DNA of 64,000 nucleotides, taken from the NCBI GenBank assembly GCA_028289445.1, contig JANQPO010000014.1, positions 18,620 through 82,619 on the forward strand, in the 5' to 3' direction. This DNA is from Tepidamorphaceae bacterium. GTDB taxonomy: Bacteria > Pseudomonadota > Alphaproteobacteria > Rhizobiales > JAKSCL01. How positions within the stretch are numbered: the first letter of the stretch is position 1; each line of letters opens with the position of its first letter. Both the position numbers and the translations under genes were made by a program. Of the stretch, positions 1 through 21,440 are shown in pieces. Under the pieces are notes generated by a model, which was given only the letters and a program-made list of their open reading frames with translations, ran no database searches and was not told the DNA's origin.

Positions 1-2
1 GC

Positions 3-875
3 TTCCCGACCCAAACCTGCGTCACGGAGACCAAGACCCAGCCTGTGATCGGTGAGGATGGCAAGATCATTACCGAGACGAAATATGTCGGCCTTGAAAG
101 CTACCGTAATCTGCTTGAGCCCGACCGCGCGCTGACGGCGCTGGGCAACTGGGATTGGGGATCGCTTCTTACGATCGATTTTTGGAAGGCGCTTCGCTTT
201 ACGCTGACCTTCACCCTGGTGACTCTGCCACTCGTGATTGGGCTTGGTCTTGCCATCGCCGTCGTCGTCAACAACACGGCGCGTCTCATTCGCGGACCGG
301 TGATCTTCGTTTCGCTCTTACCCTTCATCATCACGCCGGTGATCGGCGCGCTGTCGATCCGCTGGCTGTTCATTGGCGACGGCATCATGACGGCGTTTCT
401 CGAGTGGTGGCTGCAGCGCGACATCGCCATGTTCGCGCAGGGCTGGACCATCGAGTTGCTGATGATGTTCTACCGCGTTTGGCACGTCGCGCCGTTCGCA
501 TTCGTGGTGTTTTACGCCGGCCTGCAAACGGTCAATCAGGATACGCTCGAATCCGCCGTCATCGACGGCGCTTCGCGCTGGGAGCGGCTGCGCTATGTCG
601 TCATCCCACATCTCATGCCGCTGATCATTTTCATCGCGCTTATCCATCTCATGGACACGTACCGCGCTTTCGAGGAGATTGTCGGCTTCTCCAGCCAGGC
701 GTACCGCATCTCGCTGCAATGGCTGACCTATGACCTCCTTGTGCCCGACGACAGCGGCAACCGCGCGATCTCGCGGGCGTCGGCATCAGCCATGCTGACG
801 ATGATCGGGATCGTGATCCTGCTCGTTCCCTTGCTTCGCCGCACATGGCGGGACCATCGGGGAGGGTCGCACTGA
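3..875 (+). CDS. carbohydrate ABC transporter permease (MalF-like), 5'-truncated by window edge
   Basis: Frame open from position 3. Multiple TM segments and an EAA-like loop (ESAVIDGASRWERLRYVVIP). Confidence 0.9.
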   Translation, partial: FPTQTCVTETKTQPVIGEDGKIITETKYVGLESYRNLLEPDRALTALGNWDWGSLLTIDFWKALRFTLTFTLVTLPLVIGLGLAIAVVVNNTARLIRGPVIFVSLLPFIITPVIGALSIRWLFIGDGIMTAFLEWWLQRDIAMFAQGWTIELLMMFYRVWHVAPFAFVVFYAGLQTVNQDTLESAVIDGASRWERLRYVVIPHLMPLIIFIALIHLMDTYRAFEEIVGFSSQAYRISLQWLTYDLLVPDDSGNRAISRASASAMLTMIGIVILLVPLLRRTWRDHRGGSH

Positions 876-2032
876 TGAGCGCTGCCAAGACCATGCGCCA
901 GCCGTTCGGCTTGCAGCTTTCCGCCAACGCATTCCTCGCGATCTGGTGCCTGATCGCCGCGTTCCCGCTGTTCTGGATCATGGTGATGAGTTTCAAGGTG
1001 CCGGTGGACGCCTTTGCATCGAATCCGCTCGAGGTTGTCTTCGGTCCCGAAACGCGGGCTGCCGGCAAGGGGTTGTCGATCCTTGATATCGTCGTCGGCA
1101 TTGCCGCCCTCTTCTATATCGCTCGGTTGGCGGTCAACTGGCTGCCGGGCATGGTCGCGCGTTTCTCGCCGGGCGGACAGATTTGGGCCGGCTGGATCAT
1201 CGGGGCGCTGGCATTCGGGATCGCAGTCGTCGTTTTCTTGTTCGGTCTTCTGCCGCCCGTTCTGGGCGCCGTTAATGGCGTGCTTGGGCCGCTCGGCCAG
1301 CCGATCATTGGCCTGACGACTGAGCATTACAGCGCGGTGTGGGTGGAAAACGCCTTCTATCGCAACTTCCTCAACTCGATGCTTGTGACGACCGGCGTTG
1401 TGGTGATCTCGCTCACCGTCGGCACGCTCGCAGGCTACGGGCTCGCCCGGTCCGGTTCCGATCTTGCCTTCTGGCTCTTGATCATCGCGCTCATCTTTCG
1501 GGCGCTGCCGCATTCGGTGCTGGTCGCCGGTTACCTTCCGGTGTTCATCAATTCGGCCGAGTTTCTGCGGCCGATCCTGGGCGACGCGGCGCCGACGCTT
1601 TACGGTCAGCCCTATGCGGTGATCGCGGTTCTGGTCTCCATCAACCAACCGTTCACGATCTGGATGCTGCGCTCGTTCTTCCAGAATATCCCGACGGAAC
1701 TGGACGAGGCGGCGCGGGTCGATGGCTGCACCCACTTCCAGGCGTTCCGCTGGGTTATCATGCCGGTCATGTGGCCAGGGGTGATCACCACGGGTCTCTT
1801 CAGCTTCCTCTTGGCCTACAACGACCTCTTGGTGACTTCGCTGTTGCTCGACGCGCAGAACCAGACGATGGTTCCAGCGATCGCCGGCTATTTCAACCGC
1901 GAGACGACCACCACCGACCAAGTGGAAGCGGTGGCGGCGGCCGTGTCGATTATCGCGCCGCTTTTCCTCCTGGTTATGGTGTTCCAGCGCCAGATCGTCT
2001 CGGGCTTGACGGCCGGCGCGGTGAAGGGATGA
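875..2032 (+). CDS. carbohydrate ABC transporter permease (MalG-like) with extra TM insert
   Basis: TGATG overlap with the upstream gene, EAARVDGC motif and C-terminal GLTAGAVKG. Confidence 0.9.
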   Translation: MSAAKTMRQPFGLQLSANAFLAIWCLIAAFPLFWIMVMSFKVPVDAFASNPLEVVFGPETRAAGKGLSILDIVVGIAALFYIARLAVNWLPGMVARFSPGGQIWAGWIIGALAFGIAVVVFLFGLLPPVLGAVNGVLGPLGQPIIGLTTEHYSAVWVENAFYRNFLNSMLVTTGVVVISLTVGTLAGYGLARSGSDLAFWLLIIALIFRALPHSVLVAGYLPVFINSAEFLRPILGDAAPTLYGQPYAVIAVLVSINQPFTIWMLRSFFQNIPTELDEAARVDGCTHFQAFRWVIMPVMWPGVITTGLFSFLLAYNDLLVTSLLLDAQNQTMVPAIAGYFNRETTTTDQVEAVAAAVSIIAPLFLLVMVFQRQIVSGLTAGAVKG

Positions 2033-2565
2033 GCGGCGCGCGGCCCGAACAGGCGGTGCTCAGCCGCCATACGGACCTGTCCAAAACGGAGGAGACGCGT
2101 CGGGTCATCGAGACGATGGTCGACGGGCTCAATGACCATCGCATCGATGATATTGGCGAGTTCTTTGCCGAGACCTTTCGTTGGATGGGCAATTTCGGCT
2201 GCGGCTCCAAGAACGGCGTTCGCGAGTTTCAAGAGAACTGGCAGCGCCCCTTCCAGGCGGCGTTTTCCGACAAGGTCTGTGTCGACGAGGCGCGACTGTT
2301 CATGGGTGAGTGGGCGGCTGCCTTCGGTCGCCAGGAAGCGACGCACTCCGGCCCATTCATGGGCGTGTCGGCGACCGGAAAGCGGGTCGAGATTCGTTAC
2401 ATGGACTTCTGGAAAGTGGTTGACGGCAAAATCGTCGACAACTGGGTGATGGTGGATTTCCCCCACGTGCTTTCGCAACTCGGCGTGGATGTTTTCAACG
2501 GCGAGGGTTGGGAAAAGTTCGACCGACAGGAAACCGTGTCGCCGCGATCCGATCGGGTGGCGTGA
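2029..2565 (+). CDS. SnoaL-like ester cyclase / NTF2-fold protein (single domain)
   Basis: ATGA overlap. Motif H.G.FMGV.ATGKRVEIRYMDFW...DGKIVDNW. Confidence 0.8.
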   Translation: MSGARPEQAVLSRHTDLSKTEETRRVIETMVDGLNDHRIDDIGEFFAETFRWMGNFGCGSKNGVREFQENWQRPFQAAFSDKVCVDEARLFMGEWAAAFGRQEATHSGPFMGVSATGKRVEIRYMDFWKVVDGKIVDNWVMVDFPHVLSQLGVDVFNGEGWEKFDRQETVSPRSDRVA

Positions 2566-2605
2566 GCGCCTGTGAGAGGTGAATAAGGGAGTGGATCGTA
2601 TCTTA

Positions 2606-2621
2606 TTGCATACGCATGCAA
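2606..2621. promoter_or_regulatory. palindromic operator candidate TTGCAT-acgc-ATGCAA (GntR/FadR-like)
   Basis: 6-bp inverted repeat in an AT-rich gap about 60 bp upstream of the HisD-like gene. Confidence 0.5.
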
Positions 2622-2681
2622 ATTTGATAGGAGTTGAGTTGGTGTGATGGGTACGCGTTGGTCAGGGATAGGCGAAGCGAG

Positions 2682-4007
2682 ATGGCGGATTTTTTGAAGA
2701 CGGCGAAACCGGCAACCGAACGCGCCGAAGACGACGCGAAGGTGAAAGCGGTCGTCGAAGATACGCTGAAGGACATCGAGCGCCGTGGCGACCAAGCGGT
2801 GCGCGAACTATCGGAGAAGTTCGACAGCTATTCGCCTGCCTCGTTCAAGCTGTCACCGTCGGAGATCGAGGCAATCATCCAAAAAGTCTCGCCGCGCGAC
2901 ATGGCGGACATCCGATTTGCACAAACGCAAGTGCGCAATTTCGCCGAGGCGCAAAGGGCGTCGATGCTCGACATCGAGGTCGAGACCCTGCCGGGCGTCG
3001 TTCTTGGCCATAAGAACATCCCGGTCCAGTCGGTCGGTTGCTATGTGCCGGCCGGCAAGTTCCCGATGGTTGCCTCCGCCCACATGTCTGTGGCGACCGC
3101 CGACGTTGCCGGCGTGCCGCGTATCGTCGCGGCGACGCCGCCCTTCAAAGGCGAACCGAACCCGGCGGTGATCGCTGCCATGCATCTGGGCGGCGCGCAT
3201 GAGATCTACGTCATGGGCGGCATCCAGGCCGTTGGCGCCATGGCGCTTGGCACGGAGACGATTGAGCCGGTCCATATGCTGGTCGGTCCGGGTAACGCCT
3301 TCGTCGCGGAGGCGAAGCGCCAGCTGTATGGCAAGGTAGGAATCGATCTGTTCGCTGGGCCAACGGAAACCATGGTGATTGCCGACGAGACGGTCGACGC
3401 GGAGATGTGCGCCACCGATCTGTTGGGCCAGGCTGAGCATGGCTTCAACTCGCCGGCCGTTCTGGTCACCAATTCTCGCAGGCTTGCGGAGGACACACTT
3501 GCTGAAATCGAGCGTCTCCTTGCGATCCTTCCGACATCGGACACCGCGATGGCGAGCTGGCGCGACTACGGTGAAGTAATCGTCTGCGAGAGTTATGACG
3601 AGATGCTCGATGTCGCGAATGACATCGCCTCGGAGCACGTCCAGGTGATGACCGATCGCGACGAGTGGTTCTTGGAGAACATGCACTCGTATGGCGCGCT
3701 GTTCCTGGGTCCGCGCACCAATGTCGCGAATGGCGACAAGGTGATCGGCACCAATCATACGCTGCCGACGAAAAAGGCTGGGCGTTATACCGGCGGCCTA
3801 TGGGTCGGTAAATTCCTGAAGACCCACAGCTACCAAAAGGTTCTGACCGACGAGGCCGCAGCCGATATCGGCGCATACTGTTCCAGGCTTTGCATGTTGG
3901 AGGGCTTTGTCGGTCACGCCGAGCAGGCCAATATCCGCGTGCGCCGTTACGGGCGGCGCAATGTTCCCTATGGTGCTCCAGCCGAACCGCAGGAAGCGGC
4001 GGAGTAA
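2682..4007 (+). CDS. histidinol dehydrogenase-family protein (HpsN-like clade, not biosynthetic HisD)
   Basis: Motifs [28 protein letters not shown] and GDK..GTNH. No his genes nearby. Confidence 0.85.
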
Positions 4008-4045
4008 GGGCTGGTCCGCGTCGTTTCAGTGAGTCACATTGGTTC

Positions 4046-5092
4046 ATGGCCACCGACGTTCATACGCAAAACAAGGCGCTTCTCGAACCGTTGCGTCAGG
4101 CGCTTTACGACTACGAGCTGGCCTCTGTCCGTTCGGCGCTGAACGCATGCTTCGATCGCGACGCTTCGGTGCGCTTGGCCTATCCGTTCGAGGATCTTGA
4201 TGGACCGGACGGACTATTCGACTGCGCATATGCGCCGCTCGCGGCAGCGCTTCCCGACTTGGAACGGCGCGACACCATCGTCATGGCCGGTCCGACGCCT
4301 GAGGGCGACAACTGGATCGGGTGTGGCGGCTGCTATACGGGCACCTTTGCCGCGCCCTGGCTCGACATCCCGCCGACTGGCCATCAGATCGCACTGCGCT
4401 TCCACGAGTTCTTTCGGATCGAAGAGGGCCGGGTCGTGGAAATGCAGGCGCTGTGGGATATCCCCGAGGTGATGATGCAAGCGGACGCTTGGCCGATGGC
4501 GCCGAGCCTTGGCCGCGAGTGGCATGTGCCGGGACCTGCGACGCAAGACGGCCTCGTTCCAGGCCCTCACGACGAAGCGGCGGGCCGGGCGACCTGCCAG
4601 CACATCATCGATATGTTGACCTACATGAAAATGCACCCATCACTTGGTGGACCGGAGATGATGGAGATGGAGCGGTTCTGGCATCCGCGCATGAACTGGT
4701 ATGGCCCGTCCGGCATCGGCACCGGGCGCGGTATCCTCGGCTTTCGCCACTGGCATCAAATCCCGTTCCTGAACGCCATGCCGGACCGGGGACAATACGT
4801 CGACGAAGTCACCTATCACTTTTTCGGCGATCGCAATTATGCCGGAGTGACAGGCTGGCCGAACATGATCCAAACCATCACCGATGATGGCTGGCTGGGG
4901 ATCGCACCGTCAGGGCGCAAAATCACCATGCGCAGCCTCGATTTCTGGCGGCTCGAAAATGGCTTGATCCGCGAGAACTGGGTTCTGGTCGACCTTCTCG
5001 ATATGTATCGGCAGATCGGTGTCGACGTACTTGCGCGGATGCGTGAACTGGTCGCACCGCGCCGCAACCCGCAGATGACGGTGACGGCATGA
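4046..5092 (+). CDS. tandem SnoaL/ester cyclase-family protein
   Basis: Two NTF2-like repeats (WLDIPPTG...HEFFR and WLGIAPSG...LDFWRLENGLIRENW). Confidence 0.75.
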   Translation: MATDVHTQNKALLEPLRQALYDYELASVRSALNACFDRDASVRLAYPFEDLDGPDGLFDCAYAPLAAALPDLERRDTIVMAGPTPEGDNWIGCGGCYTGTFAAPWLDIPPTGHQIALRFHEFFRIEEGRVVEMQALWDIPEVMMQADAWPMAPSLGREWHVPGPATQDGLVPGPHDEAAGRATCQHIIDMLTYMKMHPSLGGPEMMEMERFWHPRMNWYGPSGIGTGRGILGFRHWHQIPFLNAMPDRGQYVDEVTYHFFGDRNYAGVTGWPNMIQTITDDGWLGIAPSGRKITMRSLDFWRLENGLIRENWVLVDLLDMYRQIGVDVLARMRELVAPRRNPQMTVTA

Positions 5093-5856
5093 CCGAACTG
5101 CCGCGTACGCCCTCGTTCCGACTTGACGGCAAAACGGCGCTGGTCGCCGGCGCCTCGCGCGGCATCGGGCTTGGCTGCGCCGTCGCGCTCGCCGAAGCCG
5201 GCGCCCATGTTGTCTGCGCGGCGCGTGGCGCGGATGCGCTGAACGAGGCCGTCGACGCGATGCGCGCGAACGGTCTCGCGGCCGATTCCCTCGTGCTCGA
5301 CATTGCCGACATCGATGCCGTTTCCGCGGCGATCGCAGGACTTTCCCGCCTCGACGTCTTCGTCAACAGCGCCGGGATTGCCCGTCATGGACCGGCGCTG
5401 GAGACCACACCGGAAGACTTCGATACCGTCATCGATGTCAACTTGCGCGGTGCCTATTTCGCCGCACGAGAGGCCGCGCAAAAGATGATCGCGGCTGGCC
5501 AAGGCGGCGCGATCATCACGCTGTCGTCTCAGATGGGCCATGTCGGCGGGATCGACCGTGCGGTCTATTCGGCATCGAAACACGCGGTCGAAGGCATGAC
5601 CAAGGCGATGGCGATCGAGTGGGGCGCCGCCGGCATCCGCGTCAACACGATCTGCCCCACCTTCATCCGCACGCCGCTCACCGAGACAACCTTTCAGAAC
5701 CCGGAACGTGTCGCGTGGATCGAATCGAAGATCAAGCTCGGTCGGGTTGGCCAGGTGGAAGATATCATGGGAGCCGTCGTGTTCTTGGCAAGCGATGCGG
5801 CCGCGCTGATCACGGGCACGGCGCTGCTGGTCGACGGCGGTTGGACAGCCGGGTAG
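5089..5856 (+). CDS. SDR family NAD(P)-dependent oxidoreductase
   Basis: Motifs GASRGIG, NSAG, YSASK and LLVDGG. ATGA overlap. Confidence 0.9.
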   Translation: MTELPRTPSFRLDGKTALVAGASRGIGLGCAVALAEAGAHVVCAARGADALNEAVDAMRANGLAADSLVLDIADIDAVSAAIAGLSRLDVFVNSAGIARHGPALETTPEDFDTVIDVNLRGAYFAAREAAQKMIAAGQGGAIITLSSQMGHVGGIDRAVYSASKHAVEGMTKAMAIEWGAAGIRVNTICPTFIRTPLTETTFQNPERVAWIESKIKLGRVGQVEDIMGAVVFLASDAAALITGTALLVDGGWTAG

Positions 5857-5862
5857 GGGGCA

Positions 5863-6840
5863 ATGGCGTTGGACGGCTTCAATCCGAAATGGAAGGACTT
5901 TCCGGACTACATCTTGGGGATCACCAAGGAAATCTGGGAAGACCGGCAGATTGGCACGCTCAATCGGTATTACGCCGACGATATCGTTGTGCGATCGCCC
6001 GCGTCTGTCGTCGTTGGTAATCAGGGCGTGATCGCGGCGACGATGGCGACGCTTGCGGAATTTCCGGATCGGCAGCTGCTCGGTGAGGATGTGATTTGGT
6101 CGCGGGATCCAAGCGGCCACTATCTGTCGTCCCATCGGATCGTTTCGACAGCGACCCATGCAAAAGACGGCGTTTACGGTAAGGCGACCGGAAAGACCCT
6201 GAAGTATCGCATCATTGCCGACTGCGCGGCACGCGCCAATGTCATCGACGACGAATGGCTGATCCGGGACCAGGGCGCGATCGTTCGCCAGCTCGGCTGG
6301 GAACCGAAGGACTATGCCGCCGATCTGATCGAACGCGAAGGCGGGCCGGAGAACTGCGTCCGTCCGTTGACGCCTTACACCGACAAGCCGGGTCCGTATG
6401 CCGGCGCCGGCAACGACGACGCCTGGGGCGTGCGCTACGCCGACATCCTGTCGCGGATCATGGCGGCGAACATGGCGACGATCCCACAGAGTTTCGATCG
6501 CGCCTGCCAGCTCGAACATCCTGGTGGCCTCACGGGTCACGGCTATGGCGACGCCGACGAGTTCTGGATGGGGTTGCGGGCGTCGTTTCCGAACGCAGAA
6601 TTCGCCATTCACCACCAGGTTGGCCGCGACGATCCGGACATGCCGCCGCGCGCGGCGCTGCGCTGGTCGCTTCATGGTCGCCACGAAGGCTGGGGGTCGT
6701 TCGGCACGCCGACCGGAACCGAAGTCTATGTTTTGGGCATCAGCCACGCCGAGTTCGGGCCCTGGGGGCTCAGACGCGAATACGTGGTTTTCGATGAGAC
6801 GGCGGTCTGGAAGCAAATCCATCTGCAAGCAGGACACTGA
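5863..6840 (+). CDS. tandem NTF2/SnoaL-like protein
   Basis: Two repeats (LAEFPD..H..DGVYGKATG and LRASFPN..H.GWGSFGTPTG). Confidence 0.7.
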   Translation: MALDGFNPKWKDFPDYILGITKEIWEDRQIGTLNRYYADDIVVRSPASVVVGNQGVIAATMATLAEFPDRQLLGEDVIWSRDPSGHYLSSHRIVSTATHAKDGVYGKATGKTLKYRIIADCAARANVIDDEWLIRDQGAIVRQLGWEPKDYAADLIEREGGPENCVRPLTPYTDKPGPYAGAGNDDAWGVRYADILSRIMAANMATIPQSFDRACQLEHPGGLTGHGYGDADEFWMGLRASFPNAEFAIHHQVGRDDPDMPPRAALRWSLHGRHEGWGSFGTPTGTEVYVLGISHAEFGPWGLRREYVVFDETAVWKQIHLQAGH

Positions 6841-6842
6841 CA

Positions 6843-7811
6843 ATGACACCGCAAGACATGGAATCCCGCATCGTTCGCTATGGCGATCTGAAGCCCTGCC
6901 GGACCGCCTTTATCGATGCCCATACACCCGGCTCTGATCAGAAGGAGAACTTCACCGTTATTGGTGGCGGTGTGTCGGAAAGTCCTGATCAGCACGTCCA
7001 CATCAAGGAGACGCCGGGTTTTAACATCGGCGCGGCCGGTCAGCCGCCGAAATGCCGCAACTCGCTCCATTCACATCGCACGGCCGAAGTGTTCTTCGTG
7101 CTCAAAGGTCGCTGGCGCTTCTTTTGGGGCCGCTGGGGGACCGCCGGCGAGGTGGTGCTGGAAGAGGGGGACATCTTCAACATCCCCACCGGAATCTTCC
7201 GCGGCTTTGAGAACATCGGGACCGACTACGGAATGATCATGGCGATCCTCGGCGGCGACGACGCCGGTGGTGGCGTGATCTGGGCACCGCAGGTGATCAC
7301 TGACGCGACGGACCACGGCCTGGTGCTTGGCGAGAACGGTGTTCTTTACGACACCAAGAAAGGTCAGGGGCTTCCGGACGGTATCAAGCCGATGCCGCTC
7401 TTGACCGACGAAGAATTGAAGACGTTTCCCGAGCCGACGACAGCCGATGTGATCCCGCACTACGTGGCGCGCTATTGGGACCTGATGGCGCTCGCAGACC
7501 GCCAACCGGCGAAGGTGATCGGTCCGGATGCGATGCTGGTGGATCGGCCGGGCTTCGAGGTGGACTTCATCACGCGAGGTTCCATACCGGAGGCACCGTA
7601 CGCGAGCGATCGCCACGAGGTTGTGATGGTTGTGCGTGGGCATTGGGCACTCGGAGTCGACGGTGAGGAGACGATCCTTGCGCCTGGCGACACCTGTGCC
7701 GTACCACCGGGCCTCTCACGCACGCTTGCCCCGTCGATGACCGGCGAGGCGAGCCTGTACCGCGTGCGCAACACCGACGATCCGGCGGGTTCGACCCGCG
7801 CGTTGATGTAA
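6843..7811 (+). CDS. bicupin protein
   Basis: HSHRTAEVFFVLKG...LEEGD...IPTG cupin motif, plus a second degenerate cupin (EVVMVVRG...LAPGD..AVPPG). Confidence 0.75.
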   Translation: MTPQDMESRIVRYGDLKPCRTAFIDAHTPGSDQKENFTVIGGGVSESPDQHVHIKETPGFNIGAAGQPPKCRNSLHSHRTAEVFFVLKGRWRFFWGRWGTAGEVVLEEGDIFNIPTGIFRGFENIGTDYGMIMAILGGDDAGGGVIWAPQVITDATDHGLVLGENGVLYDTKKGQGLPDGIKPMPLLTDEELKTFPEPTTADVIPHYVARYWDLMALADRQPAKVIGPDAMLVDRPGFEVDFITRGSIPEAPYASDRHEVVMVVRGHWALGVDGEETILAPGDTCAVPPGLSRTLAPSMTGEASLYRVRNTDDPAGSTRALM

Positions 7812-7824
7812 GGCGCCCACCACC

Positions 7825-8958
7825 GTGCCCCAAATCCTGACCACCCATGTCGGGTCGCTGCCGCGCACGCAAAAGGTCGTCGATTTCATCTTCGCCCGCG
7901 AGCGCGGCGAGCCCTATGACGAGGGTGTCTTCGACGCGACGATGACTGAAGCTGTCGATGAGACCGTTCGTCGGCAGAGGGAAGCCGGTATCGATATCGT
8001 GTCGGACGGTGAGGCCTCGAAGATCTCTTACGCGACCTATGTGAAGGACCGCTATACCGGTTTCTCCGGCGATAGCCCACGCAGCGCGCCGGCCGATCTA
8101 AGACTGTTCCCGACATTCTTGAAGAGGCTGGCGGAGTCAGGCGGCACGCCGCAATACGCGCGGCCGCTGTGCACCGGAGAGGTCAAGTCGAAAGGGCAGG
8201 GTGAGCTCCAAAAAGACATCGATAATCTCAAGGCGGCGATGCGCACGCATGGTGCGGCGCGCGGCTTCATGAACGCTGCATCGCCCGGTGTCATCTCGCT
8301 GTTCTTGCACAACGAGTACTATCCAAACCGTGAGACCTATCTAGAAGCGCTGGCCGACGTCATGCGCGAGGAATACGCGACCATCGCAGCGGCGGGTCTC
8401 GATCTTCAACTCGACTGTCCCGATCTGGCCCTGTCGCGCCACATGCTATTCGCCGATCTGTCCGACGCGGAGTTCGTCAAAATCGCCAACGCCCATGTTG
8501 AAGCACTCAATCATGCACTAGCCGATGTCCCGGAAGATCAAATTCGGGTTCACATCTGTTGGGGCAACTACGAGGGCCCGCATGTCTGCGATATCGGCAT
8601 GGACAAGGTGTTCTCCACCCTGATGAAGGCAAAGGCGCGCTACGTGTTGTTTGAGACGTCCAATCCGCGCCACGCCCATGAATGGACGGTGTTTCGCGAC
8701 CGCAAGGCGGATATCCCGGACGACAAGGTCCTCATTCCCGGCGTTGTCGACACGACCACGAATTTTGTCGAGCATCCCGAACTGGTTGCTGAGCGGATCG
8801 GTCGCTTTGTCGATATCGTTGGTGTGGACAGGGTGATTGCCGGCTCCGATTGCGGCTTCGGCACATTTGCCGGATTCGGCGCGGTCGATCCAGAGATCGC
8901 CTTTCACAAGCTCAAGGCTTTAGCCGAGGGTGCGGCGCTGGCTTCAAATCGCCTTTAG
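7825..8958 (+). CDS. cobalamin-independent methionine synthase II-like (MetE C-domain / epoxyalkane:CoM transferase-like) Zn enzyme
   Basis: Motifs TTHVGSLPR, SDGE, LQLDCP, HICWGN and GSDCGF. Single-domain length. Confidence 0.85.
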   Translation: MPQILTTHVGSLPRTQKVVDFIFARERGEPYDEGVFDATMTEAVDETVRRQREAGIDIVSDGEASKISYATYVKDRYTGFSGDSPRSAPADLRLFPTFLKRLAESGGTPQYARPLCTGEVKSKGQGELQKDIDNLKAAMRTHGAARGFMNAASPGVISLFLHNEYYPNRETYLEALADVMREEYATIAAAGLDLQLDCPDLALSRHMLFADLSDAEFVKIANAHVEALNHALADVPEDQIRVHICWGNYEGPHVCDIGMDKVFSTLMKAKARYVLFETSNPRHAHEWTVFRDRKADIPDDKVLIPGVVDTTTNFVEHPELVAERIGRFVDIVGVDRVIAGSDCGFGTFAGFGAVDPEIAFHKLKALAEGAALASNRL

Positions 8959-8969
8959 CGCACTGCATC

Positions 8970-9704
8970 ATGTCGCGCGAAACGCTTGTTCTGTTGCCGG
9001 GCATGATGTGCGATCGGCGACTTTTCGCGCCGCAGATCGCGCACTTTGAAGGCACCTTCGCCATCCATGTCGGTGAGCTGATCGGCGAGGACAGCGTGAC
9101 CGGATTGGCCGAGAAACTGCTGCGCGAGATCGAATCATCGCGCTTTTCCCTGGCTGGGCTGTCGATGGGCGGCATCATTGCGATGGCCATGGCAGGGTTA
9201 GCGCCGGAGCGGGTCAGCCGTTTAGCGATGTTGGATACCAATCATCGCGCGGACCCGCCTGAGCGCCGGCCGATCCGCGAAGCGCAGATCGCCGCCGTCG
9301 GCGAGGGGCGACTTGATGCGGTCATTGTTGAGGAAATGAAGCCAAACTATCTGGCGGCCGAGAATCGAGACGATTCCGCACTGCTAAATCTCTTAGTCGA
9401 CATGGCGATGGAGCTCGGGCCGGTCGCCTTCGTCAGTCAATCGGTGGCTTTGCGCGACCGCGCCGACCAATCGGCGGCACTTGCGAGCTTTCACGGTCCG
9501 TCACTCGTTCTTTGCGGTGAGGAAGATACATTGTGCCCGCCGGCGCGCCATCGCGAGATCGCGGCGCTTCTAGCGAATAGCGAACTCAAGATCATTCCCG
9601 GCGCCGGGCATATCGTAACACTTGAGCAGCCAGAGGCGGTCAACGCTGCGCTTGCGGCTTGGCTCGCGCGGCCGGCAGACCAACATCCCAGCCATGCGAC
9701 TTGA
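8970..9704 (+). CDS. alpha/beta hydrolase
   Basis: GLSMGG nucleophile elbow, CGEED and AGH. Confidence 0.85.
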   Translation: MSRETLVLLPGMMCDRRLFAPQIAHFEGTFAIHVGELIGEDSVTGLAEKLLREIESSRFSLAGLSMGGIIAMAMAGLAPERVSRLAMLDTNHRADPPERRPIREAQIAAVGEGRLDAVIVEEMKPNYLAAENRDDSALLNLLVDMAMELGPVAFVSQSVALRDRADQSAALASFHGPSLVLCGEEDTLCPPARHREIAALLANSELKIIPGAGHIVTLEQPEAVNAALAAWLARPADQHPSHAT

Positions 9705-9776
9705 CGGGGCGGCCAAACGACGAAATGATTTAAGCCTAAAATATCCATGTGGTTTGGCAGGGGGAGACGGACGATC

Positions 9777-10160
9777 ATGACGGATGCGTCCGACGATTCA
9801 TTCTGGCTGTGGGACCTAAAAGTCGAGACGGTCGCCGGCGACCGGCCCATGGTCTGCGATCATCCCGTCGGGTCAGGCTTTACCGTCGAGGGCGAGAACA
9901 TCGTGATGGGCGAAAAGGGCACGTTTCCGATGTATCCGCTCGCCACGCTGCTGCCATTCCTGCCGGCCAAGCAGCGTCCGACCGATGATAATGACTGGAT
10001 GACGACGGACGCTGAAATTGCATGCCCCGATCCCCATTGCGGCGGTCGTTTCCGCATCACGCGGACCAAGAAGCGTCAGTTTCGTCATTCGGAGACCACC
10101 GGTCTGCCGGAACATCGGGGTTCGCCCTATTGGGACAAGGACAAAAGCGATGCCGGCTGA
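9777..10160 (+). CDS. TIGR04076-family protein (function unknown)
   Basis: C.H..G, LLPFLPAKQR, DWM and CPDP.CG motifs. Confidence 0.7.
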   Translation: MTDASDDSFWLWDLKVETVAGDRPMVCDHPVGSGFTVEGENIVMGEKGTFPMYPLATLLPFLPAKQRPTDDNDWMTTDAEIACPDPHCGGRFRITRTKKRQFRHSETTGLPEHRGSPYWDKDKSDAG

Positions 10161-11205
10161 TGGGATCGAGCTGCGGCCTGGCTATTCGGTTTCCCGGATC
10201 ATCAAGGGTGGTTGGCAGCTCGCCGGCGGTCACGGCTCCTTTGATCGGGCCGAGGCGGTGCGGGACATGGCGCGGTTCGTCGACGCTGGCATCACGACGT
10301 TCGACTGCGCGGACATCTACACCGGCGTTGAGGAGATGATCGGCGACTTCATTGCCATGCTGCGGTCCGATCGCGGTGCCGAGGCGGCCGACGCGGTGCG
10401 CGTTCACACCAAGCTGGTGCCGGATTTCGATCGCCTCGACTCCTTCATGGCAAGCGATGTCGAAGCCATCGTCGACCGATCGCTCAAGCGGCTGAACCTC
10501 GACCGGCTGCATTTGGTTCAGTTCTATTGGTGGGATGTGGAGCGCGGCCATCCGGTGGAGGTGCTGTCGTCGCTGACGCGGCTGCAAGAGAAGGGCAAGA
10601 TCGCCTATCTCGGCACGACGAATTGGGACACCGACATGATGGCTCGCTTCGTCGACGCCGACCTCGATCTGGTTTCTGCGCAGGTGCAGTACTCGCTGCT
10701 AGACGCGCGGCCGGAGGGCCGGTTCTCGCACTGGTGCCAGGACCACGCGATCCATCTGCTTTGTTACGGCACGATTGCCGGCGGTTTCCTGACCGAGGCA
10801 TGGCGCGGCAAGTCCGATCCCGGCTACGCGTTCGAGAACCGGTCGCTCATCAAATACCGGCTCATCATCGACGAATTCGGGGGTTGGGATCTGTTCCAAG
10901 ACCTCCTGGATGTGTTGCATGGGATTGCCGAACGACATGGCGTGACTATCGCCGCGGTCGCAAGCCGTGCCGTCCTCGACAAGCCGAACGTTGCATCGGT
11001 CATCGTCGGCGCGCGGACGGCAAGACATCTGGACCGGACAGTGCCGATCTTCGATTTGCCGCTGGATGACCAGGACAGGGCGACGCTGGCAACCGTGCTC
11101 GACCGACGCGCCGGGCCCGCCGGTCCAGTCTACGGCTTGGAGCGCGACAAGACCGGCCCGCACGGCCGTATCATGAAATACAATCTCAACACGGATGCCG
11201 CATGA
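10150..11205 (+). CDS. aldo/keto reductase
   Basis: Motifs GGWQLAGG, FDCADIY, HTK, SLKRL and QVQYSLLD. Confidence 0.85.
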   Translation: MPADGIELRPGYSVSRIIKGGWQLAGGHGSFDRAEAVRDMARFVDAGITTFDCADIYTGVEEMIGDFIAMLRSDRGAEAADAVRVHTKLVPDFDRLDSFMASDVEAIVDRSLKRLNLDRLHLVQFYWWDVERGHPVEVLSSLTRLQEKGKIAYLGTTNWDTDMMARFVDADLDLVSAQVQYSLLDARPEGRFSHWCQDHAIHLLCYGTIAGGFLTEAWRGKSDPGYAFENRSLIKYRLIIDEFGGWDLFQDLLDVLHGIAERHGVTIAAVASRAVLDKPNVASVIVGARTARHLDRTVPIFDLPLDDQDRATLATVLDRRAGPAGPVYGLERDKTGPHGRIMKYNLNTDAA

Positions 11206-11975
11206 CGGCGCCCATCCTCGCGATCGAAGACGCGAGCGTCGACTACGGAGCGTTTCGCGCGGTCGACGGGGCGACCCTTCGTGTGAGACCGGGTACGATC
11301 ACCGGGCTCATCGGTCCCAACGGTGCCGGGAAATCGACGCTGTTCAATGCGATCGCCGGCGAGAAAGAGCTGACCGCAGGCGCGATCCGCTTTCAGGGGA
11401 AACGGATCGACGATCGGTCGCCAGACCAAGTGTTCGCTAGCGGTCTGGCACGCACGTTTCAGATTCCGCGGCCGTTTGCCGAAATGACGGTGCTGGAAAA
11501 CCTGATGCTGGCGGCACCCAGTCAAACGGGAGAGACGTTTTGGGCGCCGATCTTGAAACCGGCTGCCGTGCGCAGCGAGGATGCGGCAGTTCTAGGGAAG
11601 GCGCACGAGGCCCTGGCATTCACGACGCTTGATCGGGTCGCGCACGAGGCGGCGGGGCGTATCTCGGGCGGCCAGCAAAAGCTCCTCGAACTGGCGCGCG
11701 TATTGATGAGCGATCCGGCGATGATCTTGCTCGACGAGCCCGCGGCCGGCGTCAACCCGGCTTTGACCGAGGTGCTCATCGACAAGATCGAGGCACTGAA
11801 CGCACGCGGCATGACGTTCCTCATCATCGAGCATGACATGGACCTGGTCATGCGCCATTGCGATCCGATCATCGCGATGGCCGCCGGCCAGGTGATCTTC
11901 GAGGGCAACAGCGAAGCGGCCCTGTCCGATCCGCGCCTGCTCGATGCGTATCTCGGAGATGTCGCCCATGCCTGA
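11202..11975 (+). CDS. branched-chain amino acid-type ABC ATPase (LivG-like)
   Basis: Motifs GPNGAGKST, LARTFQ, LLDEPAAG and IEHDM. Confidence 0.9.
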   Translation: MTAPILAIEDASVDYGAFRAVDGATLRVRPGTITGLIGPNGAGKSTLFNAIAGEKELTAGAIRFQGKRIDDRSPDQVFASGLARTFQIPRPFAEMTVLENLMLAAPSQTGETFWAPILKPAAVRSEDAAVLGKAHEALAFTTLDRVAHEAAGRISGGQQKLLELARVLMSDPAMILLDEPAAGVNPALTEVLIDKIEALNARGMTFLIIEHDMDLVMRHCDPIIAMAAGQVIFEGNSEAALSDPRLLDAYLGDVAHA

Positions 11976-14599: not shown

Positions 14600-14612
14600 A
14601 AAGGGGAACGTC

Positions 14613-15875: not shown

Positions 15876-15882
15876 CGCCATC

Positions 15883-15909
15883 GGCCGGCCCGGCGCAACC
15901 GGGCCGGCC
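15883..15909 (+). other. perfect 11-bp GC hairpin after SBP gene (mRNA stabiliser or attenuator)
   Basis: GGCCGGCCCGG-CGCAA-CCGGGCCGGCC followed by TCTTTCC. Confidence 0.6.
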
Positions 15910-15916
15910 TCTTTCC

Positions 15917-17386: not shown

Positions 17387-17392
17387 AGCGTC

Positions 17393-21353: not shown

Positions 21354-21440
21354 GGTGCTCACATCGATTTTGGCGCCTCATAGCGCATTTCGGCGCCGCA
21401 TGCACTGTGGTCCCCGTCCGAAAGCTGACGGATTCGTAAC

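What the first reader, a model, noticed from the sequence alone, without database searches (positions are those of the whole stretch)
1..9704. Uncharacterised catabolic operon: HpsN-like dehydrogenase, three SnoaL/NTF2 proteins, bicupin and MetE-like Zn enzyme
Seen: ten co-oriented, mostly overlapping or closely spaced genes behind sugar-type ABC permeases. Known: HisD/HpsN enzymes carry out 4-electron alcohol-to-acid oxidation, NTF2/SnoaL folds act as cofactor-free cyclases, epoxide hydrolases or dehydratases, and single-domain MetE relatives use Zn to activate thiols (e.g. epoxyalkane:CoM transferase). I know no described pathway that combines these. Inference: uptake and breakdown of an unidentified cyclic, glycosidic or sulfonated metabolite. 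This is a strong candidate for a new pathway.
Basis: partly seen in the sequence, partly recalled or inferred. Interest (0 to 1): 0.8.

Follow-up and report, generated by a model that had tools for sequence, protein, structure and literature searches.

The report
Conserved orphan catabolic operon, substrate unknown
This is a real, repressor-controlled set of uptake and breakdown genes shared by many marine and soil bacteria, built from an unusual mix of enzymes that matches no described pathway, so the nutrient it consumes is still unknown.

Summary
Window 1-9704 holds ten co-oriented, tightly packed genes: two CUT1 ABC permeases, a single SnoaL, a HisD/HpsN-family dehydrogenase, a tandem SnoaL, an SDR, a second tandem SnoaL, a bicupin, a single-domain MetE-like Zn enzyme and an alpha/beta hydrolase. 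The unit extends about 5.7 kb upstream of the window (LacI, Amidohydro_2, a fourth SnoaL gene, ATPase, SBP) and ends at 9704. The same gene order recurs in 41 of 59 fully flanked related loci. A 16-bp palindrome, TTGCATACGTATGCAA, marks its promoters: 101 sites in 56 of 80 loci, 0.39 expected. The only two near-perfect copies in this 3.95-Mb genome lie in the cluster. The dehydrogenase is not HpsN: the sulfonate-binding motif G-R-Y-A/S-H reads G-K-F-P-M in 79 of 79 orthologues, and a true HpsN-type paralogue sits elsewhere. Two points I did not see in the brief earlier scan notes: dehydrogenase plus SDR is a free-standing cassette in 10 of 59 loci, and streamlined genomes keep only ABC, dehydrogenase, SDR, one tandem SnoaL, bicupin and an RraA-like aldolase, so MetE-like plus hydrolase is optional. 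No paper found describes it. The scan met this cluster before in other genomes, also as an orphan. The substrate remains unidentified.

The parts
1..875 (+). CUT1 ABC permease 1 (its 5' end lies upstream of the window, start about G000:C3:18469)
   Evidence: PF00528 BPD_transp_1, E 1.4e-08. Found in 57 of 80 related loci at >=40% identity.
875..2032 (+). CUT1 ABC permease 2
   Evidence: PF00528, E 6.6e-19. Start at ATG 875 behind GGGGAGGG. Found in 58 of 80 loci.
2029..2565 (+). Single-domain SnoaL/NTF2 protein (s1)
   Evidence: PF07366, E 1.4e-19. ATGA overlap with permease 2. Aligns over its full length to SnoaL 1sjw, but the SnoaL catalytic positions read Y124/D126/N138/V140. Found in 41 of 80 loci.
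2606..2621 (.). LacI-type operator palindrome TTGCATACGCATGCAA upstream of the dehydrogenase gene
   Evidence: One of only two sites with <=1 mismatch to TTGCATACGTATGCAA in the 3.95-Mb genome. The other, G000:C3:16001, lies in the divergent promoter of the same cluster. Across related loci there are 101 sites in 56 of 80 loci against 0.39 expected.
2682..4007 (+). HisD/HpsN-family Zn/NAD+ four-electron alcohol dehydrogenase (HIS), a clade distinct from both HpsN and HisD
   Evidence: PF00815, E 9.8e-135. Best solved relative is CpHpsN 8v35, E 3.6e-115. The motif at the HpsN His126 position is G-K-F-P-M in 79 of 79 orthologues.
4046..5092 (+). Tandem SnoaL/NTF2 protein sB
   Evidence: Two PF07366/PF12680 stretches. 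Start. 40% identical to the upstream divergent sA. Found in 48 of 80 loci.
5089..5856 (+). Short-chain dehydrogenase of the KduD / gluconate-5-dehydrogenase type
   Evidence: PF13561, E 1.7e-61. Best NCBIfam hits are KduD and gluconate 5-dehydrogenase, all below their cut-offs. Found in 73 of 80 loci and 57 of 59 fully flanked loci.
5863..6840 (+). Tandem SnoaL/NTF2 protein sC, the SnoaL gene kept in all three streamlined loci examined
   Evidence: Pfam. Model pLDDT 95.5 with two NTF2 domains at 1-147 and 182-325; best match is SnoaL-like 3kkg, Z 16.3. No sequence match in the PDB. Found in 53 of 80 loci.
6843..7811 (+). Bicupin with one intact metal site (H76, H78, E82) in the N-terminal barrel
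   Evidence: PF07883 x2. Invariant residues. Model pLDDT 78. VIA Z 18-19, tied among quercetin 2,3-dioxygenase, salicylate/gentisate 1,2-dioxygenase, oxalate decarboxylase and seed vicilins. Found in 57 of 80 loci.
7825..8958 (+). Single-domain MetE-like Zn enzyme (catalytic barrel only)
   Evidence: PF01717, E 7.9e-14. H243-x-C245, E277 and C343 are >=95% conserved in 42 sequences. H243/C245 align to H618/C620 of T. maritima MetE 1xpg. Found in 44 of 80 loci.
8970..9704 (+). Alpha/beta-fold serine hydrolase, PcaD-like (esterase or lactonase)
   Evidence: Abhydrolase Pfam families. Best NCBIfam hit is 3-oxoadipate enol-lactonase, 104 bits against a cut-off of 255.85. GLSMGG nucleophile elbow conserved. 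Found in 38 of 80 loci.

Best explanation
A LacI-repressed catabolic regulon for a small, polar, sugar-like compound that has not been identified.

Shown:
- A dedicated palindromic operator sits in the two promoters of the cluster.
- The importer is a binding-protein-dependent CUT1 ABC system.
- The enzyme set and its order are conserved.

Inferred mechanism:
1. The compound is imported.
2. The HisD/HpsN-family enzyme, with all Zn and catalytic residues of HpsN retained, oxidises a terminal -CH(OH or NH2)-CH2OH to the carboxylate with two NAD+.
3. The KduD-like SDR oxidises a neighbouring secondary alcohol to a ketone. These two steps form a self-sufficient cassette that other genomes use alone.
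4. The SnoaL/NTF2 proteins, above all tandem sC, do cofactor-free enol(ate) chemistry on the keto-acid: isomerisation, dehydration or ring opening.
5. The mono-metal bicupin breaks a C-C bond, as a dioxygenase or a decarboxylase.
6. In most relatives an RraA-like class II aldolase/decarboxylase, encoded directly downstream, releases pyruvate or a related 2-oxo acid. That gene is missing from this genome's copy.
7. The MetE-like Zn enzyme and the PcaD-like hydrolase form an optional side branch. It probably removes a methyl group (to homocysteine, giving methionine) and opens an ester or lactone in decorated forms of the substrate.
For: - Unit and regulation: synteny K-E-F-G-s1-HIS-sB-SDR-(LacI)-sC-bicupin-MetE-hydrolase. 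41 of 59 fully flanked loci are 'full'. The operator has 2 genome-wide sites, both in the cluster, and 101 sites in 56 of 80 loci against 0.39 expected, 76 of them upstream of the transporter's first gene.
- Import: PF00528 x2, a MalK-type ATPase and an SBP_bac_1 protein with a predicted signal peptide.
- Dehydrogenase: aligns end to end with CpHpsN. SEH (Glu318/His319), GDK (Asp352/Lys353), NH.LPT (His359) and the C-terminal His are kept (read with PMC11382572 sections 2.3-2.6).
- Cassette: HIS at >=78% identity plus SDR occurs without bicupin, SnoaL, MetE or CUT1 in 10 of 59 loci, beside CUT2 ABC, TAXI-TRAP or MFS transporters or with no related neighbours. The bicupin was not found in 4 of 5 such genomes. 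These HIS rows are interspersed among cluster rows in a quick ML tree: 11 changes for 14 rows.
- Core: three streamlined genomes (2.0-2.5 Mb, GC 0.42-0.44) all keep ABC, HIS, SDR, sC and bicupin. Two of them add the RraA-like gene and lack the MetE-like gene.
- RraA-like gene: present in 36 of 50 loci with a bicupin and >=4 kb downstream, always within 300 nt after the hydrolase (29), the MetE-like gene (6) or the bicupin (5). The G-x-x-R-D segment is invariant.
- MetE-like: Zn ligands conserved. The TTxxGSxP(R/Q)T, DGE/HGE and QxDxP segments align with T. maritima MetE.
- Hydrolases: the Amidohydro_2 protein is nearest to L-fucono-1,5-lactonase 4dlf. The alpha/beta hydrolase is nearest to PcaD.
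Against: - No substrate, product or expression datum exists; no RNA data were available.
- Every catalytic role is inferred from family membership, and no enzyme reaches a curated equivalog cut-off for a named function.
- The order of steps is not shown.
- The bicupin's fold matches are tied between dioxygenases, a decarboxylase and non-enzymatic seed proteins, so C-C cleavage is a guess.
- The single SnoaL lacks the SnoaL catalytic residues.
- This genome's copy lacks the terminal RraA-like gene. Its only paralogue (43% identity) sits in an unrelated Tct-transporter context.
- A methyl-transfer role for the MetE-like enzyme is not tested. It is absent from 20 of 59 fully flanked loci.
Confidence: 0.55

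Rival explanations
1. Catabolism of mycosporine-like amino acids, mycosporines or gadusol. The ring structures and reaction types below are recalled, from no call.
1. SnoaL proteins hydrolyse the enaminone/imine C-N bonds, giving 4-deoxygadusol (3,5-dihydroxy-5-hydroxymethyl-2-methoxycyclohex-2-enone).
2. The MetE-like enzyme removes the 2-O-methyl. Alternatively, the alpha/beta hydrolase removes a methyl ester after cleavage.
3. The HisD-like enzyme turns the C5 hydroxymethyl into a carboxylate.
4. The bicupin cleaves the aci-reductone between C2 and C3, in the manner of acireductone dioxygenase, Dke1 or quercetinase.
5. By atom bookkeeping the product is exactly 4-carboxy-4-hydroxy-2-oxoadipate, which an RraA-like aldolase splits to pyruvate and oxaloacetate.
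For: - It gives a role to the dehydrogenase, the MetE-like enzyme, the bicupin, the many SnoaL domains and the RraA-like gene placed directly after them.
- The Rhizobium-type variant adds an amidase and a second HisD paralogue under the same operator. That would suit fungal mycosporine-glutaminol; this structure is recalled, from no call.
- Carriers are marine, alga- or coral-associated and soil bacteria.
- Earlier scan notes made the same guess. Those are not independent evidence.
Against: - The SDR, the most constant partner of the dehydrogenase (57 of 59), has no role.
- The same dehydrogenase works as a stand-alone cassette with other transporters, in genomes where the bicupin was not found.
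- The dehydrogenase pocket differs from HpsN's small-substrate pocket only around His126. That argues for a C3-C4-sized substrate rather than a ring with a tertiary carbinol.
- Two of three streamlined loci lack the MetE-like gene, and one also lacks the hydrolase, although to my recollection (from no call) known mycosporines carry the methoxy group.
- The RraA-like protein resembles LigK-type aldolases only weakly: 23 bits against a cut-off of 304.5, and no PDB aldolase hit.
- No paper on genes for mycosporine breakdown was found.
Confidence: 0.15
2. Catabolism of a sugar-acid lactone or reductone such as L-ascorbate/dehydroascorbate and its breakdown product L-threonate.
1. Lactonases open the ring.
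2. The bicupin cleaves or decarboxylates the diketo or enediol acid.
3. The HisD-like enzyme oxidises the terminal diol of a C4 hydroxy acid (threonate to tartrate).
4. The SDR makes the 2-oxo acid.
5. The RraA-like enzyme decarboxylates or cleaves it.
For: - The dehydrogenase pocket is HpsN-like, with the anion-binding Lys kept and only the sulfonate-specific His lost. L-threonate is nearly isosteric with DHPS (chemical reasoning).
- The stand-alone cassettes sit beside TAXI-TRAP and MFS transporters and an HpcH aldolase. That these transporter types commonly carry anions is recalled, from no call.
- The SDR is of the sugar-acid type.
- There are two lactonase-like hydrolases, one nearest a sugar lactonase.
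- The bicupin has four invariant Arg, and oxalate decarboxylase and quercetinase are among its fold neighbours.
Against: - It gives no role to the MetE-like enzyme or to seven SnoaL domains.
- No direct evidence of any kind supports it.
- The one paper search on ascorbate, threonate and cupins found nothing.
- The known bacterial L-threonate route uses other enzymes (recalled, from no call).
Confidence: 0.1
3. A variant DHPS or other organosulfonate pathway in which the HisD-like enzyme is a true HpsN.
For: - HpsN is the closest solved relative: 8v35 at E 3.6e-115 and 8wwe at E 5e-109.
- JGI names many orthologues 'sulfopropanediol 3-dehydrogenase'.
- An SDR of the HpsO Pfam family (PF13561) lies beside it.
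Against: - The HpsN-defining motif G-R-Y-A/S-H, whose His126 binds the sulfonate (PMC11382572 section 2.6), reads G-K-F-P-M in 79 of 79 orthologues.
- The same genome has a G-R-Y-S-H paralogue next to a LacI gene and a TRAP transporter.
- No sulfo-lyase family (SuyAB, Xsc or CuyA) was seen among the Pfam hits for the cluster or the recurrent accessory genes.
Confidence: 0.03
4. A biosynthetic cluster in which SnoaL-type cyclases build a polyketide-like product.
For: Pfam names the domains 'SnoaL-like polyketide cyclase'. Fold neighbours include AknH, IdmH and KstA15.
Against: - No polyketide synthase, NRPS or other scaffold-forming enzyme family appeared among the Pfam hits.
- The cluster is headed by a binding-protein-dependent importer and a LacI-type repressor.
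- It occurs in 2.0-2.5-Mb streamlined genomes.
- The SnoaL catalytic residues are not conserved in s1.
Confidence: 0.02

Closest known systems
HpsN/HpsO module of 2,3-dihydroxypropanesulfonate (DHPS) catabolism (Cupriavidus pinatubonensis, roseobacters; PDB 8v35, 8wwe; PMC11382572, sections read: 2.3, 2.4, 2.6, passages of 2.8)
   Same: - Same fold and a full-length alignment.
- Same Zn and catalytic residues.
- The same kind of four-electron oxidation of a primary alcohol next to a hydroxyl or amino group is expected.
- An adjacent PF13561 SDR, as with hpsO.
- LacI-type regulation and binding-protein-dependent import are seen in the genome's own HpsN-type locus.
   Different: - The sulfonate-binding His126 motif is replaced: G-K-F-P-M instead of G-R-Y-A/S-H.
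- There is no HpsP-type Zn-ADH in the window's cluster (Zn-ADH genes recur in 3 related loci) and no sulfo-lyase.
- The importer is CUT1 ABC instead of TRAP or MFS.
- The module is embedded among SnoaL, bicupin and MetE-like genes that DHPS pathways lack.
Gallate / protocatechuate 4,5-cleavage lower pathway (LigI, LigJ, LigK; pathway recalled, from no call)
   Same: A ring- or C-C-cleaving metal enzyme is followed by hydrolase or hydratase steps and an RraA-fold aldolase that yields pyruvate. An Amidohydro_2 member is present.
   Different: - The cleaving enzyme here is a bicupin, not a LigB-type dioxygenase.
- The RraA-like protein scores 23 bits against the LigK model cut-off of 304.5.
- The Amidohydro_2 protein is nearest a sugar lactonase, not LigI or LigJ.
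- No aromatic-acid transporter is present.
Non-phosphorylative sugar-acid routes (L-fucose / L-rhamnose type; recalled, from no call)
   Same: LacI-type control, an ABC sugar importer, an SDR of the sugar or sugar-acid type, an Amidohydro_2 lactonase (nearest 4dlf), and a terminal pyruvate-forming aldolase in relatives.
   Different: No enolase-superfamily or IlvD/Edd dehydratase. A HisD-family dehydrogenase, SnoaL proteins, a bicupin and a MetE-like enzyme appear instead.
Single-domain 'core' MetE methionine synthases and epoxyalkane:CoM transferase (family knowledge recalled; NCBIfam PRK04326 is the best model)
   Same: The catalytic (beta/alpha)8 barrel with the His-x-Cys, Glu, Cys zinc site. 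The segments that align with the homocysteine-binding parts of T. maritima MetE are present.
   Different: - No N-terminal folate-binding domain.
- The score is 95 bits against a cut-off of 406.
- It is encoded inside a catabolic operon next to a hydrolase.
- The alkyl donor is unknown.
Tandem NTF2 enzymes such as Lsd19 and MonBI-MonBII polyether epoxide hydrolase/cyclases
   Same: Two NTF2/SnoaL barrels in one functional unit. Both barrels of sC align to 4rzm and 9kw6 (238 residues, Z 12-13, but rmsd 16.7, so the domain arrangement differs).
   Different: No sequence similarity in the PDB search. The context is catabolic. The catalytic residues were not compared.

Membership tests
HpsN (R-DHPS 3-dehydrogenase) | PF00815 fold with a full-length alignment to a solved HpsN | tested here: met
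   8v35 at E 3.6e-115, residues 3-434 against 4-435.
HpsN (R-DHPS 3-dehydrogenase) | Catalytic and Zn residues Glu318, His319, Asp352, His359, His411* (PMC11382572) | tested here: met
   SEH, GDK, NH.LPT and the C-terminal GH are aligned and kept (paper sections read).
HpsN (R-DHPS 3-dehydrogenase) | HpsN-specific motif G-R-Y-A/S-H, whose final His126 binds the sulfonate | tested here: not met
   G-K-F-P-M in the window protein and in 79 of 79 orthologues. The genome's own C5 paralogue has G-R-Y-S-H.
HpsN (R-DHPS 3-dehydrogenase) | Neighbourhood with hpsO, hpsP and a sulfo-lyase (SuyAB, Xsc or CuyA) | tested here: not met
   Only a PF13561 SDR is adjacent. No PF00107 Zn-ADH is in the window's cluster (Zn-ADH genes recur in 3 related loci), and no sulfo-lyase family appeared in the Pfam scans of the cluster or of the recurrent accessory genes.
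HisD (histidinol dehydrogenase of histidine biosynthesis) | Family model TIGR00069 above its cut-off | tested here: met
   431 bits against a cut-off of 243.8. This is an 'equivalog_domain' model, so it shows domain-level membership only.
HisD (histidinol dehydrogenase of histidine biosynthesis) | HisD motif G-S-A-P-L, and being the genome's biosynthetic copy | tested here: not met
   The motif here is G-K-F-P-M. A separate HisD-like gene, 38% identical, lies on contig C9. PRK13770 scores 239 against a cut-off of 647.
SnoaL-type polyketide cyclases | SnoaL Pfam domain or NTF2 fold | tested here: met
   PF07366 is above its cut-off in s1, sB and sC, and in the upstream sA. The sC model has two NTF2 barrels, Z 14-16 to SnoaL-like structures.
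SnoaL-type polyketide cyclases | Catalytic Gln105, His107, His119, Asp121 of SnoaL (residue roles recalled, from no call) | tested here: not met
   In the s1 alignment to 1sjw these positions are Y124, D126, N138 and V140. NF033407 scores 41.8 against a cut-off of 200. sB and sC were not tested.
Cobalamin-independent methionine synthase MetE | Catalytic barrel with the His-x-Cys, Glu, Cys zinc site | tested here: met
   H243, C245, E277 and C343 are >=95% conserved in 42 sequences. H243/C245 align to H618/C620 of 1xpg.
Cobalamin-independent methionine synthase MetE | N-terminal domain that binds methyltetrahydrofolate polyglutamate; full-length model cut-off | tested here: not met
   377 aa. 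It matches only profile positions 417-495 and the C-terminal half of the 750-aa models. The best model, PRK04326, scores 95 against a cut-off of 406.
Bicupin dioxygenases (quercetinase, gentisate/salicylate 1,2-dioxygenase) | Bicupin fold | tested here: met
   VIA Z 18.9 (rmsd 3.5, 231 aligned) to 1gqh and Z 18.7 (rmsd 3.3, 231 aligned) to 2phd. These tie with vicilins and oxalate decarboxylase.
Bicupin dioxygenases (quercetinase, gentisate/salicylate 1,2-dioxygenase) | Metal site with three His (+/- Glu) and O2-dependent cleavage | tested here: inconclusive
   H76, H78 and E82 are invariant, but the motif-2 His is Arg120. The C-terminal barrel is degenerate. Activity is not testable here.
LigK-type 4-carboxy-4-hydroxy-2-oxoadipate aldolase | Equivalog model TIGR02798 and presence in this cluster | tested here: not met
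   Absent from the window's cluster. In relatives the RraA-like protein scores 23 bits against a cut-off of 304.5, though the R-D segment is invariant.
LacI-controlled catabolic operon | LacI-family repressor plus a conserved palindromic operator in the promoters | tested here: met
   PF00356 and PF13377. Two genome-unique operator sites. 101 sites in 56 of 80 loci against 0.39 expected. Binding itself is not testable here.
3-oxoadipate enol-lactonase PcaD | Equivalog model TIGR02427 | tested here: not met
   104 bits against a cut-off of 255.85. The alpha/beta fold and the G-x-S-x-G elbow are present.

The most novel reading that the evidence does not exclude
The operon is the unknown bacterial route for consuming mycosporine-like amino acids or gadusol, the UV 'sunscreens' of algae, corals and fish eggs. 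In it, a folate- and B12-independent MetE-like enzyme would make methionine directly from the substrate's methyl group. A bicupin would open the demethylated, carboxylated ring to 4-carboxy-4-hydroxy-2-oxoadipate. That would link sunscreen turnover to central metabolism in a handful of enzymatic steps.
Probability: 0.12. Interest if true: 0.85.

Novelty: new variant of a known kind. Interest (0 to 1): 0.62.

Why it matters
The kind of system is ordinary: a repressor-controlled ABC-importer operon. The enzyme combination matches nothing described.

- It is widespread. The dehydrogenase has at least 579 related stretches in species-representative genomes.
- The bicupin occurs in 24 of 401 genomes sampled evenly across the class, in 23 of 308 genera.
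- It is retained in 2.0-2.5-Mb streamlined marine-type genomes. That implies a common environmental substrate.

Identifying that substrate would add a flux to marine and soil carbon budgets. It would also assign functions to four large unannotated families: the G-K-F-P-M clade of HisD/HpsN enzymes, tandem SnoaL proteins, this bicupin family and a catabolic MetE-like family. Finally, it could reveal a new methyl donor for methionine synthesis.

The conserved operator and the SBP give direct experimental handles.

Tried and rejected
- **RNA evidence:** no RNA holder listed. The only holder was one DNA run of a coral metagenome that may be the source of this DNA.
- **Literature:** nine searches in all. 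Seven aimed at this gene set or candidate substrates found no description of it. One search found the HpsN papers. (PDB codes 8YSB/8KAA) led only to an anthracycline paper. Passages of the 2026 cyclitol review PMC12904256 and of the cysteinolate paper PMC12814064 mention no such pathway.
- **PDB by sequence:** nothing for sC. The SBP has only distant sugar-binding relatives, best 5iai at E 3.9e-14, with no informative ligand.
- **ESM Atlas for the bicupin:** only 'cupin' clusters.
- **Fold searches:** the bicupin and sC match their superfamilies generically and do not discriminate function.
- **RraA-like against solved HMG/CHA aldolases:** no hit; only 3k4i, an uncharacterised protein.
- **S. 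medicae WSM419 pSMED01:** it carries the bicupin, but the stored record has no annotation, so no locus tags were available for a literature search.
- **Terminator and promoter scan:** no informative terminator. One weak promoter-like site at 9701-9729.
- **My first gene caller** mis-called high-GC ORFs. I replaced it by tblastn mapping plus Pfam.
- **Considered from memory and dropped for lack of any test:** vitamin B6, pterin, glyceryl-ether/betaine-lipid head groups, 2-C-methylerythritol, tetronate and tetritol substrates.
- **The tree** is the quick tree, not the finished careful search.

Full report
**1. What is in the sequence.**

Window 1-9704 carries ten co-oriented + strand genes. Starts were refined.

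| Gene | Coordinates | Note |
|---|---|---|
| permease 1 | ..875 | 5' end upstream of the window |
| permease 2 | 875-2032 | |
| single SnoaL (s1) | 2029-2565 | ATGA overlap with permease 2 |
| HisD/HpsN-family dehydrogenase (HIS) | 2682-4007 | |
| tandem SnoaL (sB) | 4046-5092 | |
| SDR | 5089-5856 | |
| tandem SnoaL (sC) | 5863-6840 | |
| bicupin | 6843-7811 | |
| single-domain MetE-like | 7825-8958 | |
| alpha/beta hydrolase | 8970-9704 | |

Using the genome I read the 12 kb upstream. A LacI-family gene lies at G000:C3:12929-13933 (+). Two divergent genes follow: an Amidohydro_2 gene (13939-14850, -) and a fourth, tandem SnoaL gene, sA (14847-15929, -). Then on the + strand come a MalK-type ATPase (16088-17140), an SBP_bac_1 binding protein with a predicted signal peptide (17194-18408) and permease 1.

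Downstream of 9704 come a TIGR04076 gene, an aldo-keto reductase and a LIV-type ABC system.

**2. It is one conserved, regulated unit.**

A scan of species-representative genomes with HIS gave 599 matching stretches. Of these, 579 were confirmed relatives, and the best 80 loci were kept. tblastn of all cluster proteins against these 80 loci shows the recurring order ATPase-SBP-permeases-s1-HIS-sB-SDR-LacI-sC-bicupin-MetE-hydrolase.

Among the 59 loci with at least 8 kb on both sides of HIS, at >=35% identity and >=40% coverage:

| Gene | Loci of 59 |
|---|---|
| SDR | 57 |
| LacI | 53 |
| ATPase | 50 |
| SBP | 49 |
| bicupin | 49 |
| sB, sC, sA | 44 each |
| MetE-like | 39 |
| s1 | 37 |
| hydrolase | 36 |
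| Amidohydro_2 | 12 |

Of these 59 loci, 41 are 'full' clusters. The genes after 9704 are found in 0-2 of 80 loci, so the unit ends there.

A 16-bp palindrome lies between s1 and HIS (window 2606-2621). A near-copy lies in the divergent promoter between sA and the ATPase. In the whole 3.95-Mb genome these are the only two sites within one mismatch of TTGCATACGTATGCAA.

In the 80 related loci there are 101 sites within two mismatches, in 56 loci, against 0.39 expected under a uniform model. Their positions:
- 61 upstream of the ATPase gene
- 15 upstream of the SBP gene
- 9 upstream of HIS
- 4 upstream of the bicupin

No site within 400 nt upstream of HIS or the SDR occurs in the loci that have only HIS and SDR. 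L025 has one site 354 nt upstream of its HIS. This is the signature of a dedicated LacI regulon. Binding itself was not tested.

**3. The enzymes.**

*HIS.* Its closest solved relatives are the DHPS dehydrogenases: 8v35 at E 3.6e-115 and 8wwe at E 5e-109. Histidinol dehydrogenases follow at E 2e-75 or weaker.

The alignment keeps the catalytic Glu-His, the Asp-Lys pair, His359 and the inter-subunit His. The HpsN paper defines the family by the motif G-R-Y-A/S-H, whose His126 binds the sulfonate; HisD has G-S-A-P-L (PMC11382572 section 2.6). Here the motif is G-K-F-P-M, in 79 of 79 orthologues.

As an internal control, the genome's second paralogue (46% identical, contig C5) lies beside a LacI gene and a TRAP transporter and has G-R-Y-S-H. 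So HIS belongs to a third clade and is very unlikely to act on a sulfonate. Apart from this motif (R to K, Y to F, A to P, H to M) and a Ser226-to-Thr change, the ligand-contact residues are those of HpsN. I therefore infer a small diol or amino-alcohol substrate with a polar or anionic far end. HpsN-type enzymes accept both 2-hydroxy and 2-amino alcohols (PMC12814064, passages).

*SDR.* It resembles KduD, gluconate 5-dehydrogenase and L-rhamnose 1-dehydrogenase, always below their cut-offs.

*s1.* It aligns over its whole length with SnoaL (1sjw). The four SnoaL catalytic positions (roles recalled, from no call) read Y/D/N/V.

*sC.* It has no sequence relative in the PDB. It folds with high confidence (pLDDT 95.5) into two NTF2 barrels. 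The nearest structures are uncharacterised SnoaL-like proteins, then IdmH, AknH, limonene epoxide hydrolase and ketosteroid isomerase, at Z 12-16.

*Bicupin.* H76, H78 and E82 in the first barrel are invariant, as are four Arg. Its second-motif His is Arg120, and its second barrel is degenerate. The model (pLDDT 78) matches quercetin 2,3-dioxygenase, salicylate/gentisate 1,2-dioxygenases, oxalate decarboxylase and seed vicilins alike, at Z 17-19.

*MetE-like protein.* It keeps the His-x-Cys, Glu, Cys zinc site. Its TTxxGSxP(R/Q)T, DGE/HGE, QxDxP and HxC segments align with T. maritima MetE. It lacks the folate-binding N-terminal domain.

*Hydrolases.* The alpha/beta hydrolase is PcaD-like. The Amidohydro_2 protein is nearest L-fucono-1,5-lactonase.

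**4. What the relatives add.**

An RraA-like gene ends the operon in 40 of 80 loci, and in 36 of 50 loci that have a bicupin and >=4 kb downstream. It always lies within 300 nt after the hydrolase (29), the MetE-like gene (6) or the bicupin (5). Its G-x-x-R-D segment is invariant. It resembles LigK-type aldolases only faintly.

The window's copy lacks this gene. The genome's only paralogue (43% identity) lies in an unrelated context.

Rarer accessory genes, out of 80 loci:
- SAM methyltransferase: 9
- GMC oxidoreductase: 6
- PNPOx-like flavoprotein: 5
- amidase: 4
- Zn-ADH: 3

The Rhizobium-type variant reads SnoaL | SBP-permeases-ATPase-HIS-SDR-LacI-bicupin-RraA-amidase | second HisD paralogue (motif G-R-Y-P-L) | hydrolase-SnoaL, with operators before several of these units.

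**5. Two observations I did not see in the brief earlier scan notes.**

First, HIS plus SDR is a modular cassette. In 10 of 59 fully flanked loci, HIS at >=78% identity and the SDR occur without the bicupin, SnoaL, MetE-like or CUT1 genes. They sit beside CUT2 ABC systems, TAXI-TRAP systems (one with an HpcH aldolase) or an MFS transporter. In low-GC genomes they sit among unrelated housekeeping genes.

With this query the bicupin was not found in 4 of 5 such genomes. In a quick maximum-likelihood tree these HIS sequences are scattered among those of full clusters: 11 label changes for 14 rows, with 29 of 500 shuffles as low. The tree does not follow taxonomy (the careful search did not finish). 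The two enzymes must therefore turn something into a readily used metabolite on their own.

Second, I examined three streamlined genomes (2.0-2.5 Mb, GC 0.42-0.44) that carry the bicupin:
- One has sA | ABC-HIS-SDR-sC-bicupin-hydrolase-RraA.
- One has ABC-HIS-sB-SDR-sC-bicupin-RraA.
- One has the full marine set with the MetE-like gene and the hydrolase.

None has the LacI gene nearby. The core is thus ABC, HIS, SDR, sC, bicupin and RraA-like. The MetE-like and hydrolase genes are an optional branch.

**6. How it most likely works.**

Shown: the gene set, its conservation, its operator, and the intact metal and catalytic motifs.

Inferred:
1. A small polar, sugar-like compound is imported.
2. 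HIS makes a carboxylate from a terminal carbinol.
3. The SDR makes a ketone.
4. SnoaL proteins carry out enol(ate) chemistry.
5. The bicupin cleaves a C-C bond.
6. The RraA-like enzyme, where present, releases pyruvate or a related 2-oxo acid.
7. The MetE-like enzyme and the hydrolase strip a methyl group and an ester or lactone from decorated substrates.

I put 0.55 on this general scheme.

For the substrate I can only rank guesses. Earlier scan notes proposed mycosporine-like amino acids. I worked that chemistry through. Demethylation, oxidation of the hydroxymethyl group and acireductone-type cleavage of 4-deoxygadusol would give exactly 4-carboxy-4-hydroxy-2-oxoadipate, the substrate of RraA-fold aldolases. 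The structures and enzyme chemistries are recalled, from no call.

That scheme is attractive, and the Rhizobium-type amidase plus second HisD would suit fungal mycosporine-glutaminol. It leaves the SDR and the stand-alone cassette unexplained, and it clashes with the streamlined loci that lack the MetE-like gene. I give it about 0.15.

A sugar-acid lactone or reductone route (ascorbate to threonate to tartrate) fits the HIS pocket, the SDR, the lactonases and the cassette. It explains neither the MetE-like enzyme nor the SnoaL proteins. I give it about 0.1.

**7. Comparison and novelty.**

The nearest known system is the HpsN/HpsO module, but membership fails on the defining motif and on the neighbourhood. 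The gallate lower pathway, non-phosphorylative sugar-acid routes, core-MetE enzymes and tandem NTF2 epoxide hydrolases each share one feature only.

Seven full-text searches aimed at this gene set or candidate substrates found no description. The HpsN search found only the papers cited here, and searched two PDB codes.

The scan itself has met this cluster at least a dozen times in other genomes, always as an orphan. Those notes are unchecked AI notes, not independent support.

The bicupin occurs in 24 of 401 genomes sampled evenly across the class, in 23 of 308 genera, and on 47 plasmid records.

I class this as a new variant of a known kind: an ordinary type of operon encoding an undescribed pathway. 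It has concrete experimental handles in the SBP, the operator and the dehydrogenase.

Noticed in passing
window 9705-9776 and 9777-19578: This genome's copy of the operon lacks the RraA-like gene that follows the hydrolase, MetE-like gene or bicupin in 36 of 50 relatives. In its place come genes found in 0-2 of 80 related loci:
- a TIGR04076-family gene (9777-10160)
- an aldo-keto reductase (10150-11205)
- a LIV-type ABC system (11202-15872)
- an AKR-RidA fusion (15788-17383)
- a SIS-domain gene
- an Amidohydro_1 gene
   Followed up: partly
window 20358-29277: A myo-inositol-type catabolic cluster on the - and + strands: Dus, class II aldolase, IolB (KduI/IolB family), PfkB kinase, a ThDP enzyme (IolD-like), a xylose-isomerase-like TIM protein (IolE-like), a Gfo/Idh/MocA dehydrogenase and a LacI regulator. 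The whole window is a carbohydrate/cyclitol catabolic island.
   Followed up: no
G000:C5:250161-256011 (locus L083 4161-10011): A second HisD-family gene carries the true HpsN motif G-R-Y-S-H. It lies behind a LacI gene and a DctPQM TRAP transporter and is a likely DHPS or cysteinolate dehydrogenase locus.
   Followed up: partly
G000:C18:4197-6662 (locus L084): A second single-domain MetE-like gene, 41% identical to the cluster's. It lies next to a 403-aa ORF with no Pfam match and an AraC/cupin_6 regulator.
   Followed up: no
window 42791-51500: Another LacI-headed CUT1 ABC cluster, with a Dabb (stress-responsive A/B barrel) gene, an SDR, a DUF993 protein (E 2.4e-181) and a xylose-isomerase-like TIM protein. 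Its function is unknown to me.
   Followed up: no
window 36039-42779: A row of Gfo/Idh/MocA, GMC oxidoreductase, aldehyde dehydrogenase, CoA-transferase and enoyl-CoA hydratase genes, suggesting an alcohol-to-acyl-CoA route.
   Followed up: no
related loci L002-L081: Two classes of SBP and permease accompany otherwise similar enzyme sets. SBP identity to the window is about 67-75% in one class and about 40-46% in the other, while the ATPase stays at 71-86%. This may reflect different members of one substrate family.
   Followed up: no
loci L013, L022, L026 (Rhizobium-type): A second HisD-family paralogue (44-45% identical, motif G-R-Y-P-L, S-D-K instead of G-D-K) lies divergently inside the same regulon, next to an amidase.
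   Followed up: partly
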